From the sequence record MK524178.1: a stretch of DNA of 64,000 bases; one strand, given 5' to 3'. The DNA is from Escherichia phage PHB12. The first letter of the stretch is position 1. Every line of letters begins with the position of its first letter. A program made the position numbers and the translations under genes. The notes under the pieces were generated by a model. The model was not told the DNA's origin. It made no database searches and was given only the letters and a program-made list of their open reading frames with translations. Shown piece after piece: positions 3,460-42,151 of the stretch.

Positions 3460-4475
3460 TGTGTTGCCTCAATATAAAGTTCGTTGGAATATTTGACCAG
3501 TGCTTCTCTGTCTTCGTCTGAGATATCTGGAATCGCGTCAATATATTCTTTAATGATATCTTGAAGTGATTTAATCTCGATTTCCTGGTCGTCATCAGAT
3601 TCAACACTGTTATCAACTTTAGAAACCATACGAAGAGAGTGAACTACTTTTTCAAGTTCAGATTCAAACTTAGTCAACTCTGAATCAATTTCTGATACTA
3701 TAACACGTAAGGCTAGATTAGTATAATCAGAATAATTGATTTTGCCTTTAAACGGATAAGTGATTCGTCGATGCCATGTTGTTTCATTAGGAATAAATTC
3801 CATACGTTCAACATCAGTGTCAAATACCCAGAATCCGCGCGGGTCGTTCTCATCACCCGCAGTAAGGGTCCATGGTGTCCCAATATATTTGACGTTAGCA
3901 GCTTCAGAGATTGTGTGGAAGTGGCCGGACCAGACTTGTTTATAGGTCTTTAAGAAATCAGGTTCAAGCCCATGAGACTTCATTCCTTTATAGAAATAAA
4001 AGCCGTTCAGTTCCCAGTGCCCAACACAATACGCTGCAGAAGAAGTCTTGATGTGCTCTAAGATTTCACCTGTATTTTCTTCACACATCCATGGAACGAT
4101 ATCAATCAGACATCCGTCAAAATCTACAGTAGTTGGATGTTCGTAAATAGTAAAGTTTTCAAATTGAGTTAACAATTCAGAAACAGTGTTAGGTGTTATT
4201 GTATTCTTAAACGCCATGTCATGGTTTCCTATCGTGACATGAACGTGAATGCCTGCTTTAGAAATCATATCAACGATTTCACGATTGAATTCCATTGTAC
4301 GATGTGTAATTGCTTTACGGACGTCAAACCAATCACCATACTGAATCCAAGTTTTAATCCCGTGTTTCTTAGAGTATTCAATTGCTTGACGAATACCATC
4401 ACGTTGAATATCTTGGACCCATGGGTCGTCTTGTTTGACTCCGATATGGAAGTCGCCTAAGTGCAAAATTTTCAT
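3456..4475 (-). CDS. 47: recombination endonuclease subunit gp47 (Mre11/SbcD-like)
   Basis: 339 aa; calcineurin-like phosphoesterase motifs (GDFH, GDWFD, GNHD, GHWE, GHFH); same length as T4 gp47; 4-nt overlap with upstream ORF. Confidence 0.9.
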   Translation of the reverse strand: MKILHLGDFHIGVKQDDPWVQDIQRDGIRQAIEYSKKHGIKTWIQYGDWFDVRKAITHRTMEFNREIVDMISKAGIHVHVTIGNHDMAFKNTITPNTVSELLTQFENFTIYEHPTTVDFDGCLIDIVPWMCEENTGEILEHIKTSSAAYCVGHWELNGFYFYKGMKSHGLEPDFLKTYKQVWSGHFHTISEAANVKYIGTPWTLTAGDENDPRGFWVFDTDVERMEFIPNETTWHRRITYPFKGKINYSDYTNLALRVIVSEIDSELTKFESELEKVVHSLRMVSKVDNSVESDDDQEIEIKSLQDIIKEYIDAIPDISDEDREALVKYSNELYIEATQ

Positions 4476-4979: not shown

Positions 4980-5262
4980 TAGCCTGACGAGTAGTAACCC
5001 ACTGGATTTTAATTAACTTGTCATTATACGGTTGTCGTAGAATACCCCGAGATTTCTTAATAGCATATTCGTAAGCTTCGAAGTTGTTTTGAATTGCTGC
5101 TTCTTGAGCATGTGCATAAAGACGGTTTAGTTCAAAACGATTCTTTTTAAGAATCTTTTCGGATTTTTTACGTGCTTCAGCTTCATTTTTCTTTTGGATT
5201 TCTTGTAGCATTTTAGCTACTGCATCTTCTGCTTCTTTATTTTCAATAATCTCGGTAGTCAT
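4939..5262 (-). CDS. hypothetical protein (charged, helical)
   Basis: 107 aa ORF; lysine/glutamate-rich. Confidence 0.4.
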   Translation of the reverse strand: MTTEIIENKEAEDAVAKMLQEIQKKNEAEARKKSEKILKKNRFELNRLYAHAQEAAIQNNFEAYEYAIKKSRGILRQPYNDKLIKIQWVTTRQAIEDIINGASSNKV

Positions 5263-5263
5263 A

Positions 5264-5473
5264 TTATCTCATTAAATTAAAATAAAAACGTCCGTCCTCT
5301 TCAATGCAGAACTCGTACTCAACCGGAGTCCCATTTATCGAAAATGACACGTCGTGTGGGTTCAAAGGATCGATGTCAAAATTAATTTTAAATTCTCGAC
5401 CCAACAGTTTTACCAAATAAGGGATTGCTTCGTCAAAAGGTTCTTCTAAGTAGTTAGAGATATCAATTGTCAT
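5264..5473 (-). CDS. hypothetical protein
   Basis: ORF track gives 5264..5557; trimmed to an internal Met ([11 protein letters not shown]...) because the N-terminal part overlaps the gp55 coding end in another frame. Confidence 0.35.
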
Positions 5474-6020
5474 CCTCATATAAAAAATCCAAACTAGGCG
5501 AATCGCTAACAACTTCCTTCTTTTCAGCCCCAGGAGCTTTATAAGCGGATTCTTCATAATGCGTCATTTTATCGTAGATGTCTTGAATAAACGTTTCATC
5601 TACCAACGCTACCATATCATCGTCATGACTGTCGTAGACATTATGAACGAAGTAACTATATTTCTTTGCAACTTCCTTACGTTCTTTTTTGATACGTTGG
5701 ACAAAAGCATTAAAACAAGCTCGAGTTATGTATGCATGTGGGTTATTGTACTTAGTTTCGTCGAAATTATGAAGTCCCTTAATAGAGGCTTCAATCCCAT
5801 CTGCGATCATCTCCTGCTTCCAAGACTGGGTGTATCCTGAAAAGTTGAAACGTTTGGACAGGCCTTCGGCGATAAGCATAATTGCTAAACCGATGGTATC
5901 ATTCTGACGAATAATTTTGTTTGGGTCTTTATTATTTAAGAGCTCCTTTTTCCACTCGATTATAGCGGCGAGAAGCTCTTTATTATTCACATAGTTATTT
6001 TTAGGTTTTTGTTCAGTCAT
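5463..6020 (-). CDS. 55: late-transcription sigma factor gp55
   Basis: 185 aa; near-identical along its length to T4 gp55 as recalled ([17 protein letters not shown]...[31 protein letters not shown]...). Confidence 0.9.
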
Positions 6021-30002: not shown

Positions 30003-30284
30003 CTATTTTTCTGAAGCGCCCGAAATATATTTTTCAAGACGTTGTTTCATCAGCGAGCCGTTCTTAGCGATTTCTTCCGGTTTATCGCACATACGCAACA
30101 AGGCTTCAAGCTTAACGATATCACTGGTACGTTCAAATTTGCGAGTATCTATCTTACTAGCAAGTTCAGAAATACGTGCTAATAGACTTTCAGCTTCAAC
30201 CAAAGCTGCACCTAGCTTAGTTGCAAATGTGTCAGTAGCTTCGTTAAGAATAGATTCTGATAAAAATTCACTATATGTTTTCAT
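30003..30284 (-). CDS. internal-protein-like protein with capsid-targeting leader
   Basis: Start at ATG 30282-30284 ([11 protein letters not shown]...), ATGA overlap with the stop of e; 93 aa. Confidence 0.5.
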
Positions 30285-34271: not shown

Positions 34272-34310
34272 TGATAGGACTACTATAACATAGCCCTATC
34301 TTGTTGTAAA
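34272..34310 (-). promoter_or_regulatory. promoter-early stem-loop cassette
   Basis: TGATAGGACTACTATAACATAGCCCTATC with GTTTAC at rc of 34305-34310. Confidence 0.5.
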
Positions 34311-37089: not shown

Positions 37090-37118
37090 ATTATACTCTG
37101 CTCTCAAGAGTTTGTAAA
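37090..37118 (-). promoter_or_regulatory. early promoter TTTACA-17-TATAAT with -10 inside hairpin loop (copy of the 6765-6800 cassette)
   Basis: Minus strand TTTACAAACTCTTGAGAGCAGAGTATAATGCTCTCATTGG; inverted repeat TGAGAGCA/TGCTCTCA. Confidence 0.6.
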
Positions 37119-38587: not shown

Positions 38588-39103
38588 TTAAAGCAAATCA
38601 ACCATTTTAACGGTTGGCAAAACAATTTCTTTTTCAATATAAGCAAATTCGACACGTTCAACTACACGCAAGAAATCGTAATCATAGTATTCAGAAGCAT
38701 AGCCAAGAATATCAATAAGTCCTTGAGATATCTCATCGCCTTTCACAAAGAACAGGTCGAATACGCGGGCTTCGTCTTCTTCAGATTTATCACCAAGGTC
38801 GACTTCAATATCAAAGACCTTTTTAATAAATTCCGGTTGGAGTTGGTCTGAGAACAGTCCTTCAACCAGATATTCGTAGATAATAAGCGAGCAACGTCCG
38901 AATGGTGTATTACCGCAATAACGTTCGGCTTTAGTGCTAGAATGACGGCTCTTAAATTTCTTAAAGAGATATTTAAACTGTTGGAGCTCATGCTCTTCCA
39001 CTTCAAACAATGTTTTGGTTTTATAGTTGTCACCATCACTTTCATATGTAGTGACATCAATTACGTAGCCCTTAGGAATTGTACTGCCTAAACGAATATT
39101 CAT
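38588..39103 (-). CDS. hypothetical protein
   Basis: 171 aa acidic ORF. Confidence 0.45.
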   Translation of the reverse strand: MNIRLGSTIPKGYVIDVTTYESDGDNYKTKTLFEVEEHELQQFKYLFKKFKSRHSSTKAERYCGNTPFGRCSLIIYEYLVEGLFSDQLQPEFIKKVFDIEVDLGDKSEEDEARVFDLFFVKGDEISQGLIDILGYASEYYDYDFLRVVERVEFAYIEKEIVLPTVKMVDLL

Positions 39104-39758: not shown

Positions 39759-39944
39759 TTACTCACCTTTTGCAATTTTATCCATAACGATAGCGATTAA
39801 GCCGATTAGAAATGCTACTACCAATGAGATAGAGTTTTCGGTTGTTGTCAGTAGTCCACAAATGAATCCTACAAACATCGAAAAACTAAAAGCCATTGAA
39901 GCAATTACTACAGCAACATTACGAATCAGTTCAGCGCGTTTCAT
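39759..39944 (-). CDS. small membrane protein
   Basis: Start at ATG after GGAGA (MKRAELIRNVAVVIASMAF...); two hydrophobic segments; about 61 aa. Confidence 0.35.
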   Translation of the reverse strand: MKRAELIRNVAVVIASMAFSFSMFVGFICGLLTTTENSISLVVAFLIGLIAIVMDKIAKGE

Positions 39945-39971
39945 TTTATTCTCCATTTACTCATTTGTTTT

Positions 39972-40010
39972 GATAGGACTACTATAACATAGTCCTATAG
40001 GCTTGTATAC
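39972..40010 (-). promoter_or_regulatory. promoter-early stem-loop cassette (ATAGGACTACTATAACATAGTCCTAT)
   Basis: 9-bp inverted repeat ATAGGACTA/TAGTCCTAT enclosing the -10 region; -35-like GTATAC. Confidence 0.55.
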
Positions 40011-40012
40011 CT

Positions 40013-40276
40013 TTATTTCAAATATATTGCGTATTTTTTATAGCCACCAGGCTCGTGTCGAAGACCTTTATCATTCGCAAAACGTTGAATGTTATTGAAC
40101 TGGTTTTCATCAAGTTCGGATGTGTCAAATACGAAAAAGTTTCGTTTGTTACCAAGCGTGATATGCGGAGTTAAGTCAATGTTATACAAATTAAGAATAT
40201 CAGCAATAACCTGATTAACCGCTTTGTTAATTTTCACACCAGATGATTCTGAGATGAATTCGTTGAAAGTTTTCAT
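40013..40276 (-). CDS. internal-protein-like protein with capsid-targeting leader
   Basis: Start at ATG 40274-40276 (MKTFNEFISES...); 87 aa. Confidence 0.5.
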   Translation of the reverse strand: MKTFNEFISESSGVKINKAVNQVIADILNLYNIDLTPHITLGNKRNFFVFDTSELDENQFNNIQRFANDKGLRHEPGGYKKYAIYLK

Positions 40277-40300
40277 TTTAGGTTCCATTTGGTTGTTTTG

Positions 40301-40337
40301 ATAGGACTACTATAACATAGTCCTATCATGTTGTAAA
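40301..40337 (-). promoter_or_regulatory. promoter-early stem-loop cassette (same 26-nt hairpin as 39972)
   Basis: ATAGGACTACTATAACATAGTCCTATC followed by TTTACA at rc of 40332-40337 (17-nt spacer to TATAGT). Confidence 0.55.
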
Positions 40338-40649
40338 TTATTTTATGCCTTTAGAAGAAATGGTATTTTGGCGTTTGACCCCTGTTTGTGAAAAATCGTG
40401 GTTATCGATTTGGTCAACTCGCATAACACCAAATGCGGATTTAATTTTGGCTTTTGAACCTTTTTTGATACTAATTACCATATAAGTATCATTTTTCTTA
40501 TATTCGAAATTTGTTACTTCAACGCCTTGATTAGAAATTGACTTAATAATAGCATTAGCGTATTCATCATCTAACGGACCGTTAGTGTTAATAATAAAAT
40601 TTTTATCCGCTTTAGTAGCTTCCGCGATGAATTCTTGATAGGTTTTCAT
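40338..40649 (-). CDS. internal-protein-like protein with capsid-targeting leader
   Basis: 103 aa; begins MKTYQEFIAEA. Confidence 0.55.
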   Translation of the reverse strand: MKTYQEFIAEATKADKNFIINTNGPLDDEYANAIIKSISNQGVEVTNFEYKKNDTYMVISIKKGSKAKIKSAFGVMRVDQIDNHDFSQTGVKRQNTISSKGIK

Positions 40650-40676
40650 TTTATTTCCTTGAGGTTGTTTATTTGA

Positions 40677-40713
40677 TAGGATGATAGTAACACACCATCA
40701 TCCTTATGTAAAC
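40677..40713 (-). promoter_or_regulatory. promoter-early stem-loop cassette variant (AGGATGAT/ATCATCCT stem)
   Basis: 8-bp inverted repeat around TAGTAACAC; GTTTAC at rc of 40708-40713. Confidence 0.5.
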
Positions 40714-40726
40714 TGTTTTGTGAAAA

Positions 40727-41412
<686 letters not shown>

Positions 41413-41416
41413 TTTA

Positions 41417-42151
41417 TCACCTTAAGATTTTTTCAATTTTAGAATAAAGCTCTTCTAACGAGCCGTCGTTTGTAATAACTAAGTCGCCTTCTTCAATAGG
41501 CAACCCAGCTTCTGTAATATGTTTATCAGTGGATTCCGTACCAGAACGAACCACATGAATAACTGTAGCACCCATCGCTCTAGCGGTTTCCATTTCATGG
41601 ACTTGGCGTGTATCGGTCACAACGTAGTAATCGAAATCACTTCCAATATAATCCATATAGTTTAATGCAAAAAGCTTAACCCAATACATACGGTCAAATA
41701 AATTAACGACAACATCCGTACCGAGGGCTTGCATAAGACGGCGGATTGACCATGTGTCGTTGATATTATTTATAGCTTCACGCAGGGCTTCATATGGTTT
41801 AATATCTAGATACGAATATCCACCTTCTAACGATGATAACACTTTAACATTATTAATCGGTAAATATTGACTTTGCAAATAAATTAGCGCTTCTTCCATT
41901 AATTCAATAACATCCAATTTATTGAGATTTAATGGTGTTTCACGGTCGTATCCAATGCCTTCAAAGTATTCATATTTCAACTTGGTGAATACATCCGGGT
42001 TTTCGGCGTGTTTACGCTCCCAAGCTATTGCTAGAGCGTCTTTAATTGGATATGCTAATTGATATTTTATGGATTTAAAGTTTGAATTGATGTAATCAGC
42101 AGTAGTGTCTTTACCACTACGTTTGATGCCGCTTAAAAAGATTAGCTCCAT
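41417..42151 (-). CDS. 1: deoxynucleoside monophosphate kinase gp1
   Basis: 244 aa; P-loop LSGIKRSGKDT; conserved ...SIRRLMQALGTDVVVNLFDRMYWVKLFALNY... as in T4 gp1. Confidence 0.9.
   Translation of the reverse strand: MELIFLSGIKRSGKDTTADYINSNFKSIKYQLAYPIKDALAIAWERKHAENPDVFTKLKYEYFEGIGYDRETPLNLNKLDVIELMEEALIYLQSQYLPINNVKVLSSLEGGYSYLDIKPYEALREAINNINDTWSIRRLMQALGTDVVVNLFDRMYWVKLFALNYMDYIGSDFDYYVVTDTRQVHEMETARAMGATVIHVVRSGTESTDKHITEAGLPIEEGDLVITNDGSLEELYSKIEKILR

What the first reader, a model, noticed from the sequence alone, without database searches (positions are those of the whole stretch)
40013..40649. Second pair of leader-bearing internal-protein-like genes between the tRNA region and Acb1
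ORFs beginning MKTFNEFISES and MKTYQEFIAEA sit immediately upstream (in coordinates) of the Acb1 gene. Each has its own stem-loop promoter cassette (40301-40337 and 40677-40713). Their bodies differ from the 28-30 kb set, extending the repertoire of putative injected proteins.
Basis: partly seen in the sequence, partly recalled or inferred. Interest (0 to 1): 0.5.

Follow-up and report, generated by a model that had tools for sequence, protein, structure and literature searches.

The report
Known T-even internal proteins Ip7 and Ip9
These two small genes are members of the Ip7 and Ip9 families of T4-type phage "internal proteins", which are packed into the phage head and injected with the DNA; they sit in the classic hypervariable ipI slot next to Acb1 and were named in 1994, so the finding is correct but ordinary.

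Summary
On the minus strand, a 103-aa ORF (40649..40338, MKTYQEFIAEA…) and an 87-aa ORF (40276..40013, MKTFNEFISES…) lie between Acb1/57B and tRNA.4. Each follows a sigma-70-like promoter overlapping a strong hairpin.

The window is a Mosigvirus (RB69-like T-even phage). The genes belong to the Ip7 and Ip9 internal-head-protein families, first deposited in 1994 from phage RB15 from this same 57B→tRNA.4 slot. T4 carries ipI there.

The leaders match the T4 capsid-targeting sequence, including the residues needed for targeting (4, 7) and for gp21 cleavage (I8, E10). The promoter/hairpin cassettes are PeSL elements (Arbiol 2010; Comeau 2014), and their stems show compensatory changes.

In 39 Acb1-anchored loci plus the window, the slot holds 0–5 leader-bearing genes from about 18 unrelated body families. 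Breakpoints fall in the PeSLs and leader. Within each family dN/dS is low (0.03–0.17).

The most likely function is packaging, cleavage, injection and inhibition of a host first-line defence, by analogy with T4 Ip1–3, which inhibit GmrSD enzymes. Packaging and targets are untested for Ip7 and Ip9.

One modestly new point: the Ip9 body has leaderless homologues in siphoviruses and forms a C-terminal domain of a Kuttervirus protein.

The parts
40338..40649 (-). Ip7-family internal head protein gene. 103-aa precursor with leader MKTYQEFIAE|A. Predicted mature form 93 aa, pI 9.5.
   Evidence: phrog_2667, 1.8e-38. Homologues named Ip7. Leader identical to T4 IPII/IPIII. dN/dS 0.03-0.16. AF2 gives a ferredoxin-like core, pLDDT about 90 over residues 13-80.
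40013..40276 (-). Ip9-family internal head protein gene. 87-aa precursor with leader MKTFNEFISE|S. Predicted mature form 77 aa, pI 9.0. An in-frame upstream ATG at 40288 probably belongs to the ribosome-binding site.
   Evidence: phrog_7673, 4.8e-49. Homologue UniProt Q38376, 'Ip9' of RB15. Also. dN/dS 0.10-0.17. AF2 pLDDT 82.
40670..40715 (-). PeSL cassette 1, ahead of Ip7: TTTACA-17-TACTAT with TG extension, and a 12-bp hairpin overlapping the -10 element.
   Evidence: dG -15.4, z -3.4.
40292..40340 (-). PeSL cassette 2, ahead of Ip9: TTTACA-17-TATAGT, with hairpin TGATAGGACTAT/GTAGTCCTATCA.
   Evidence: dG -17.5, z -6.8. Stem covariation.
39964..40012 (-). PeSL cassette 3, ahead of tRNA.4: TATACA-17-TATAGT, with the same hairpin family. 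It forms the right boundary of the variable slot.
   Evidence: Junction alignments.
40727..41182 (-). Acb1 / gene 57B, the conserved left anchor of the slot.
   Evidence: Pfam PF23474 Acb1, 6.7e-59.
39759..39944 (-). tRNA.4, a 61-aa membrane protein and the conserved right anchor of the slot.
   Evidence: phrog_1692, 1.4e-32. RB69 and T4 annotation.

Best explanation
The two genes are Ip7-family and Ip9-family internal head proteins of a Mosigvirus (RB69-like T-even phage). They occupy the 57B(Acb1)→tRNA.4 slot, which is the ipI locus of T4.

Proposed mechanism:
1. Each gene is an autonomous cassette with its own sigma-70-type promoter and overlapping hairpin (a PeSL element), a ribosome-binding site, a ten-residue capsid-targeting leader and an unrelated small alpha/beta body.
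2. The leader binds the precursor to the gp22 scaffolding core of the prohead.
3. The gp21 prohead protease cuts after Glu10 at the I-x-E motif. This releases basic mature proteins of 93 and 77 residues, which stay in the head with the DNA.
4. The mature proteins are injected at the next infection, before any phage gene is expressed.
5. There they most probably act as stoichiometric inhibitors of a host first-line defence. T4 Ip1, Ip2 and Ip3 each block one variant of the GmrSD type IV restriction family.

The conserved PeSLs and the leader-coding sequence provide short homology patches. Recombination at these patches inserts, deletes and swaps whole cassettes, which makes the slot hypervariable.

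Shown here: gene identity and family, leader determinants, cassette structure, purifying selection, and slot variability with breakpoints in the PeSLs and leader. Inferred: packaging, cleavage, injection, and the anti-defence role and its target.
For: Family and locus:
- PHROG internal head protein families.
- Named homologues Ip7 and Ip9.
- T4 has ipI in the same slot with the same PeSL architecture.
- Sister phages annotate these genes as internal head proteins.

Leader:
- Gene A's first 11 residues equal the T4 IPII/IPIII leader plus the first mature residue (MKTYQEFIAE|A).
- Gene B keeps an aromatic residue at position 4, F7, I8 and E10. In T4 IPIII, residues 4 and 7 determine targeting and residues 8 and 10 determine processing. 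gp21 cuts after L/I-x-E (PMC9026906).
- Across 61 slot ORFs selected because residues 1-7 match the leader pattern, E10 is present in 57 and I/L at position 8 in 51. Neither position was part of the selection.

Real genes: dN/dS 0.03-0.17. Confident compact folds.

Cassettes:
- Promoter and hairpin.
- Across 24 distinct PeSLs, 87.9% of cells are paired against 37-58% for slid controls, and 7 of 11 pairs show compensatory changes.
- They match the published T4/PST PeSL promoter consensus TTTACW-N17-TAYWAT (PMC4122927). PeSL promoter and terminator function was shown experimentally in RB49/phi1 (PMC2839356).

Variability:
- 0-5 leader-bearing ORFs and about 18 body families in 39 loci plus the window.
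- Near-identical phages carry an empty slot with one hybrid PeSL, Ip7 only, or Ip7 plus an IPI homologue.

Function precedent: Ip1, Ip2 and Ip3 each inhibit a distinct GmrSD (PMC12373910). IPIII works in the cytoplasm without its leader (PMC9391042).
Against: - I found no direct evidence that Ip7 or Ip9 is packaged, cleaved or injected. One literature search returned no virion proteomics for them.
- The only recognisable promoters directly upstream are early-type. There is no TATAAATA late promoter next to the genes; the nearest on this strand is at 41774..41767, inside gene 1. Supply of protein at the time of prohead assembly is therefore assumed, not shown.
- RB69-type DNA carries arabosylated 5-hydroxycytosine rather than glucosyl-hmC (PMC13326640), so a GmrSD-type target cannot simply be transferred from T4.
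- Leaderless Ip9-body homologues occur in Kagunavirus and Seuratvirus siphoviruses. This suggests a target not tied to T-even DNA modification.
Confidence: 0.85

Rival explanations
1. The proteins are packaged, but their role is structural. As basic internal proteins they would neutralise DNA charge or aid DNA condensation, packaging or ejection, with no specific host target.
For: The predicted mature forms are basic (pI 9.5 and 9.0). In T4, internal-protein lysines contact DNA phosphates, and about 1000 internal-protein molecules lie among the DNA (PMC3012670). T4 IPIII and triple-IP mutants show head-assembly aberrations (PMC9026906).
Against: A generic counter-ion role does not explain about 18 unrelated, individually well-conserved body families that are swapped between near-identical phages, nor slots that are empty. 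All three T4 internal proteins now have specific defence targets (PMC12373910). Leaderless Ip9 homologues in siphoviruses cannot serve such a role.
Confidence: 0.1
2. The genes encode ordinary early cytoplasmic accessory proteins that are not packaged in meaningful amounts. The leader would be a conserved recombination or translation-initiation patch, and the proteins would act only after de novo synthesis.
For: Each gene has an early-type sigma-70 promoter and no adjacent late promoter. The Ip9 body functions without a leader in other phage families. T4 IPIII complements from a plasmid without its leader (PMC9391042). The leader-coding DNA does act as a homology patch at swap junctions.
Against: The leader is conserved at the protein level at positions 8 and 10, the residues mapped for processing, in 51 and 57 of 61 slot ORFs that were selected on residues 1-7 only (PMC9026906). 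Gene A's leader is identical to the one experimentally sufficient to package GFP and other cargo in T4. Such a leader attached to any protein in a T4-type infection is expected to load it into proheads.
Confidence: 0.05

Closest known systems
[not shown]
   Same: Same two protein families: 68% identity for the Ip7 body to RB15 itself and 70-80% for the Ip9 body to Tequatrovirus members. Same leader. Same genomic slot between 57B and tRNA.4.
   Different: The host phage here is a Mosigvirus, not a Tequatrovirus. Gene order is Ip7 then Ip9, whereas RB15 has Ip5-Ip9-Ip7-Ip8. The Mosigvirus Ip9 lacks three residues just after the leader.
T4 internal proteins IPI, IPII and IPIII (Ip1-3)
   Same: Ten-residue capsid-targeting leader ending in I-x-E; gene A's leader is identical to that of IPII/IPIII. 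Small non-essential proteins. T4 ipI occupies the same slot with the same flanking promoter/hairpin cassettes.
   Different: The bodies are unrelated in sequence, and T4 IPI is not among the top 60 PDB matches of either model. Packaging, copy number and GmrSD targets are demonstrated for T4 Ip1-3 but not for Ip7 or Ip9.
PeSL (promoter-early stem-loop) cassettes of T4-type phages (Arbiol et al. 2010, PMC2839356; Comeau et al. 2014, PMC4122927)
   Same: A sigma-70-like promoter with a stem-loop between or overlapping the -35 and -10 elements, followed by the Shine-Dalgarno sequence and the start codon of a small accessory gene. The elements lie in hyperplastic regions and flank indels and replacements. 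They match the T4/PST promoter consensus TTTACW-N17-TAYWAT.
   Different: The stem sequence here (TAGGACTAT…ATAGTCCTA and variants) is lineage-specific. Promoter and terminator activity and mini-circle formation were tested in RB49/phi1, not in this phage.

Membership tests
T-even internal head proteins (Ip family in the functional sense) | N-terminal capsid-targeting sequence of about 10 residues (MKTYQEFIAE-like) with the targeting determinants at positions 4 and 7 | tested here: met
   Gene A has MKTYQEFIAE, identical to T4 IPII/IPIII. Gene B has MKTFNEFISE, with F4 and F7. Determinants are from PMC9026906.
T-even internal head proteins (Ip family in the functional sense) | gp21 prohead-protease site L/I-x-E at the end of the leader | tested here: met
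   I8-A9-E10 in gene A and I8-S9-E10 in gene B. This is a motif match only; cleavage itself was not tested.
T-even internal head proteins (Ip family in the functional sense) | Physical presence of the processed protein in the mature head, and injection with the DNA | not testable with these tools
   Needs virion mass spectrometry or injection assays. My literature search found no proteomic report for Ip7 or Ip9.
T-even internal head proteins (Ip family in the functional sense) | Location in one of the two Ip loci of T-even genomes (57B-tRNA.4, or next to e) | tested here: met
   The genes lie between Acb1/57B and tRNA.4. T4 ipI and RB15 Ip5/9/7/8 are in the same slot.
Ip7 sequence family (phrog_2667) | Full-length sequence homology to named Ip7 proteins | tested here: met
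   phrog_2667, E 1.8e-38, covering residues 1-103. Full-length identity of 63-71% to Ip7 homologues, for example in WG01, AS6, Moon and KM16, and 68% body identity to RB15 Ip7. BFVD structural hit to Ip7 of MX01, E 1.3e-14.
Ip9 sequence family (phrog_7673) | Full-length sequence homology to named Ip9 proteins | tested here: met
   phrog_7673, E 4.8e-49. 71% identity to Ip9 of RB15, Q38376. Hit to VR7 ip9.
PeSL regulatory cassettes | Sigma-70-like early promoter with a stable stem-loop between or overlapping the -35 and -10 boxes, directly upstream of the SD and ATG of a small gene | tested here: met
   Three cassettes. Hairpin z-scores from -3.4 to -6.8. Stem covariation across 24 elements.
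PeSL regulatory cassettes | Association with insertion, deletion and replacement breakpoints between closely related phages | tested here: met
   Empty-slot phages L004 and L006 carry one hybrid PeSL. p000v lost Ip9 between PeSL2 and PeSL3. The RB69 swap is bounded by PeSL plus leader on one side and by a PeSL on the other.
PeSL regulatory cassettes | Measured promoter and terminator activity | not testable with these tools
   Reporter assays exist only for RB49/phi1 elements (PMC2839356).
Type IV restriction (GmrSD) inhibitors, like T4 Ip1-3 | Specific inhibition of, or binding to, a GmrSD-family nuclease | not testable with these tools
   There is no sequence or fold similarity to IPI, IPII or IPIII bodies. 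The assignment rests on analogy alone (PMC12373910).
2H phosphoesterase / Acb1-like (considered because gene B contains TPHITLG, like Acb1's TPHITLS) | Two conserved H-x-T/S motifs and an Acb1/2H fold | tested here: not met
   The similarity is a single 9-residue patch. The His is replaced by Tyr in most Ip9 homologues. There is only one motif and no Pfam hit.

The most novel reading that the evidence does not exclude
The Ip9 body may be a portable anti-defence domain used in three delivery formats. In T-even phages it would be a leader-tagged, capsid-packaged and injected protein. In Kagunavirus and Seuratvirus siphoviruses it would be a leaderless early gene. In Kuttervirus (Ackermannviridae) it would be the C-terminal domain of a 755-aa protein encoded next to structural genes. 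Its target would then be a widespread host defence not tied to T-even cytosine hypermodification. The T-even leader would be a recently added 'delivery tag' that converts an ordinary early anti-defence gene into a pre-loaded one.
Probability: 0.3. Interest if true: 0.5.

Novelty: already known. Interest (0 to 1): 0.2.

Why it matters
Internal proteins are the earliest-acting phage counter-defences, because they arrive with the DNA. Only T4 Ip1-3 have known targets, all of them GmrSD type IV restriction enzymes. Ip7 and Ip9 are widespread: about 160 and 180 phage records carry their bodies. Neither has been characterised. In RB69-like phages, whose DNA is arabinosylated rather than glucosylated, their targets could reveal which host nucleases recognise that modification. 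This locus adds no new kind of element. Its value is as a clean natural example of PeSL- and leader-bounded cassette exchange, and as a pointer to two untested candidate anti-defence proteins.

Tried and rejected
1. Acb1 fragment or duplication. Gene B's 'TPHITLG' resembles the catalytic HxT motif of the neighbouring Acb1. I rejected this: only 9 residues align, the His is Tyr in most homologues, and there is no Pfam hit.

2. Sequence searches. The PDB sequence search gave nothing significant for either protein. NCBIfam gave nothing. Pfam gave only a sub-threshold Fn3 hit for gene A.

4. Late promoter. There is no TATAAATA match immediately upstream of either gene.

5. Apparent leader loss in locus L010. 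This was resolved as a GTG start codon (VKSYKEFLTEA…), not a loss.

7. My recollection that T4 ipII and ipIII occupy this slot was wrong. The T4 annotation shows ipI there, with ipII and ipIII next to gene e.

Full report
**What is there**

On the minus strand the gene order is gene 1 (dNMP kinase), 57A, 57B/Acb1 (41182..40727; Pfam Acb1, E 6.7e-59), a 103-aa ORF (40649..40338), an 87-aa ORF (40276..40013), tRNA.4 (39944..39759), tRNA.3, tRNA.2, RB69ORF151c-like, and then tRNA-Met and tRNA-Arg.

The second ORF can be read mechanically from an ATG at 40288 (MEPKMKTF…). That ATG overlaps the GGA of the ribosome-binding site, and sister genomes annotate the 87-aa form. The pattern MK[TS][YFW].[ED][FLIY] occurs five times in the six-frame translation of the window, each time at an ORF start, against a mean of 0.01 in 200 shuffles. 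The other three lie at 28-30 kb and are IPII-like, IPIII-like and a 93-aa protein. The five bodies are mutually unrelated.

**Which phage, and which genes**

The region is 96-98% identical in DNA to Mosigvirus genomes such as PTE-Eco05, SF, mogra and phiE142, and 84% of it aligns to RB69.

- The 103-aa protein matches PHROG 2667, 'internal head protein' (E 1.8e-38). Its homologues are called Ip7.
- The 87-aa protein matches PHROG 7673, 'internal head protein' (E 4.8e-49). Its homologues are called Ip9, including UniProt Q38376 from RB15.
- In T4 the slot holds ipI alone, and ipII and ipIII lie next to gene e.

RefSeq already annotates the two genes as internal head proteins in phages SF and phiE142.

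**Leader**

Gene A's first eleven residues, MKTYQEFIAE|A, are identical to those of T4 IPII and IPIII. Gene B has MKTFNEFISE|S.

Published mutational work on IPIII maps capsid targeting mainly to residues 4 and 7 and processing to residues 8 and 10. gp21 cuts after L/I-x-E (PMC9026906). Ten residues suffice to load foreign proteins into T4 heads (PMC3012670). Both proteins keep an aromatic residue at position 4, F7, I8 and E10.

I examined 61 ORFs from this slot in related phages, chosen because residues 1-7 match the leader pattern. E10 is present in 57 and I/L at position 8 in 51; neither position was part of the selection. Cleavage after E10 would give mature proteins of 93 aa (pI 9.5) and 77 aa (pI 9.0).

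**Real, constrained genes**

Pairwise dN/dS against close and distant homologues is 0.03-0.17.

- AlphaFold2 gives Ip7 a confident beta-alpha-beta-beta-alpha-beta core (residues 13-80, pLDDT about 90) and a disordered basic tail.
- Ip9 is predicted as a compact alpha/beta domain with mean pLDDT 82.
- BFVD returns only Ip7 of phage MX01.
- The PDB sequence search, NCBIfam and Pfam give nothing useful.

**Promoter and stem-loop cassettes**

Three minus-strand cassettes precede Ip7, Ip9 and tRNA.4:
- 40712..40684, TTTACA-17-TACTAT
- 40337..40309, TTTACA-17-TATAGT
- 40009..39981, TATACA-17-TATAGT

Each has a TG-extended -10 element and a 10-12 bp hairpin that overlaps it. As RNA the hairpins fold at -15.4, -17.5 and -15.9 kcal/mol, with z-scores of -3.4, -6.8 and -5.3. 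The same hairpin family recurs at 34310 and 33015, with variants at 37118 and 17312, always 20-41 nt upstream of an ORF.

These are PeSL elements, composite early-promoter/terminator cassettes (Arbiol et al. 2010, PMC2839356; Comeau et al. 2014, PMC4122927). The promoter part matches the published T4/PST consensus TTTACW-N17-TAYWAT.

I aligned 24 distinct PeSLs from this slot in different phages. The stem is paired in 87.9% of cells, against 37-58% when the 3' arm is slid. Seven of 11 pairs show changes on both sides, and there are 34 compensatory cells (0 of 500 shuffles reach this). The stem is therefore selected as a structure. T4 ipI is flanked by the same architecture.

I anchored on Acb1 and collected 36 viral contigs plus mogra, RB69 and p000v. 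Together with the window, the Acb1→tRNA.4 slot contains 0 to 5 leader-bearing ORFs. In total there are 71 such ORFs in about 18 body families: Ip9 in 14 loci, Ip7 in 11, and the order is sometimes reversed.

Among near-identical Mosigviruses (Acb1 97-99%, tRNA.4 100%):
- L004 and L006 have an empty slot of 82-83 nt.
- p000v has Ip7 only.
- RB69 has Ip7 plus a true T4-IPI homologue.
- The window, mogra and phiE142 have Ip7 plus Ip9.

Junction alignments show the following:
- The empty slots carry one hybrid PeSL, with the left flank of PeSL1 and the right flank of PeSL3.
- p000v joins PeSL2 to PeSL3.
- The window and RB69 are identical through PeSL2, the RBS and the first 25 nt or so of leader-coding sequence. 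They are unalignable through the body and identical again from the -35 element of PeSL3.

The variability is thus cassette gain, loss and replacement, with breakpoints in the PeSLs and the leader. It is not rapid divergence within families.

**Function**

Nothing here tests packaging or function directly.

The best-supported inference runs as follows. The leader loads the proteins into the prohead core, gp21 trims them, and they are injected with the DNA. T4 heads carry about 360 copies of each internal protein (PMC9958956). After injection they would inhibit a first-line host defence.

The precedent is strong. Ip1, Ip2 and Ip3 each specifically inhibit a different GmrSD-type type IV restriction enzyme, and the authors propose that the other proteins of the two Ip loci target further variants (PMC12373910). 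IPIII acts in the cytoplasm even without its leader (PMC9391042).

Caveats:
- RB69-type DNA carries di-arabinosylated 5-hydroxycytosine, not glucosyl-hmC (PMC13326640), so the relevant nucleases may differ.
- Only early-type promoters lie next to the genes. The nearest late-promoter consensus on this strand is inside gene 1, at 41774..41767.
- Ip9-body homologues exist without a leader outside the T-even group (see below).

**A modest new observation**

A tblastn search with the Ip9 body, leader removed, finds 181 phage records. Most are T-even-like, but they also include:
- Kagunavirus vB_EcoS_UTEC10: a 72-aa ORF, 57% identical, within a block of small hypothetical genes divergent from the replication genes.
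- Seuratvirus KS_A3: 74 aa, 44% identical.
- Kuttervirus pertopsoe: the C-terminal 73 residues or so of a 755-aa protein encoded next to structural genes.

An exhaustive HMMER scan of 1.8 billion cluster representatives found only nine representatives of this family, about half of them leaderless. By contrast, the Ip7 body appears restricted to T4-like phages. This suggests that the Ip9 body is a self-sufficient domain and that T-even phages added the capsid-targeting tag to it.

**Verdict**

The genes (Ip7, Ip9), the leader (capsid-targeting sequence), the cassettes (PeSL) and the hypervariability of this locus are all established, and the genes are already annotated as internal head proteins in sister genomes. 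Novelty is low. The open question is the target of Ip7 and Ip9, and it needs experiments.

Noticed in passing
window 40013-40246 (Ip9 body); L041:2504-2722, L042:2492-2716, L044:1501-1734: The Ip9 body has leaderless homologues in siphoviruses: Kagunavirus UTEC10 (72 aa, 57% identity) and Seuratvirus KS_A3 (74 aa, 44%). It also forms the C-terminal domain of a 755-aa Kuttervirus (Ackermannviridae) protein encoded next to structural genes. Only 9 representatives at 50% identity exist among 1.8 billion proteins, about half of them without a leader.
   Followed up: partly
protein P0025 (Escherichia phage OLB35, 'ip7 protein', 77 aa): This is a natural chimera. The middle of Ip7 (…AILRSLAKNGVEVSASDFKKGSSEMFISITKGSKAKI) is fused to the C-terminal 30 residues or so of Ip9 (DENQFNNIQRFANDKGLRHEPGGYKKYAIYLK), and there is no leader. 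It is probably a deletion joining the two adjacent genes, or a miscalled fragment.
   Followed up: no
window 30003-30284 (minus strand) versus L007:3529-3786: The third leader-bearing gene of the 28-30 kb cluster (93 aa) is 48% identical (E 1e-24) to an Ip that occupies the Acb1→tRNA.4 slot in another T-even-like contig. Ip cassettes therefore move between the two Ip loci.
   Followed up: partly
window 34310, 33015, 37118, 17312 (minus strand, positions of the -35 element): Further PeSL-type promoter/hairpin cassettes lie 20-41 nt upstream of small ORFs. Two of them carry the same GATAGGRCTAT-GTTATA-GTAGTCCTATC hairpin as the Ip9 and tRNA.4 cassettes. The leader-bearing genes at 28-30 kb did not show such a cassette with the filter I used.
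   Followed up: no
L002 (RB69) 3463-3762 versus window 40013-40276: RB69 carries a true homologue of T4 IPI, the GmrSD inhibitor, exactly where this window carries Ip9. This phage therefore lacks IPI at this locus. I could not check whether it has one elsewhere in its genome from the window alone.
   Followed up: partly
L003 (p000v) 1-41 and 5027-5695; window 38588-39103: p000v has homing-endonuclease genes flanking the same region: one upstream of gene 2 and one after tRNA-Met. These are absent from the window. The window has a 171-aa RB69ORF151c-like ORF between tRNA.2 and the tRNA genes, and mogra lacks it.
   Followed up: no
window 41767-41774 (minus strand): The only exact T4 late-promoter consensus (TATAAATA) near the locus lies inside gene 1, upstream of 57A. 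It could drive late read-through transcription of 57A, Acb1, Ip7 and Ip9 if the PeSL hairpins do not terminate fully.
   Followed up: no
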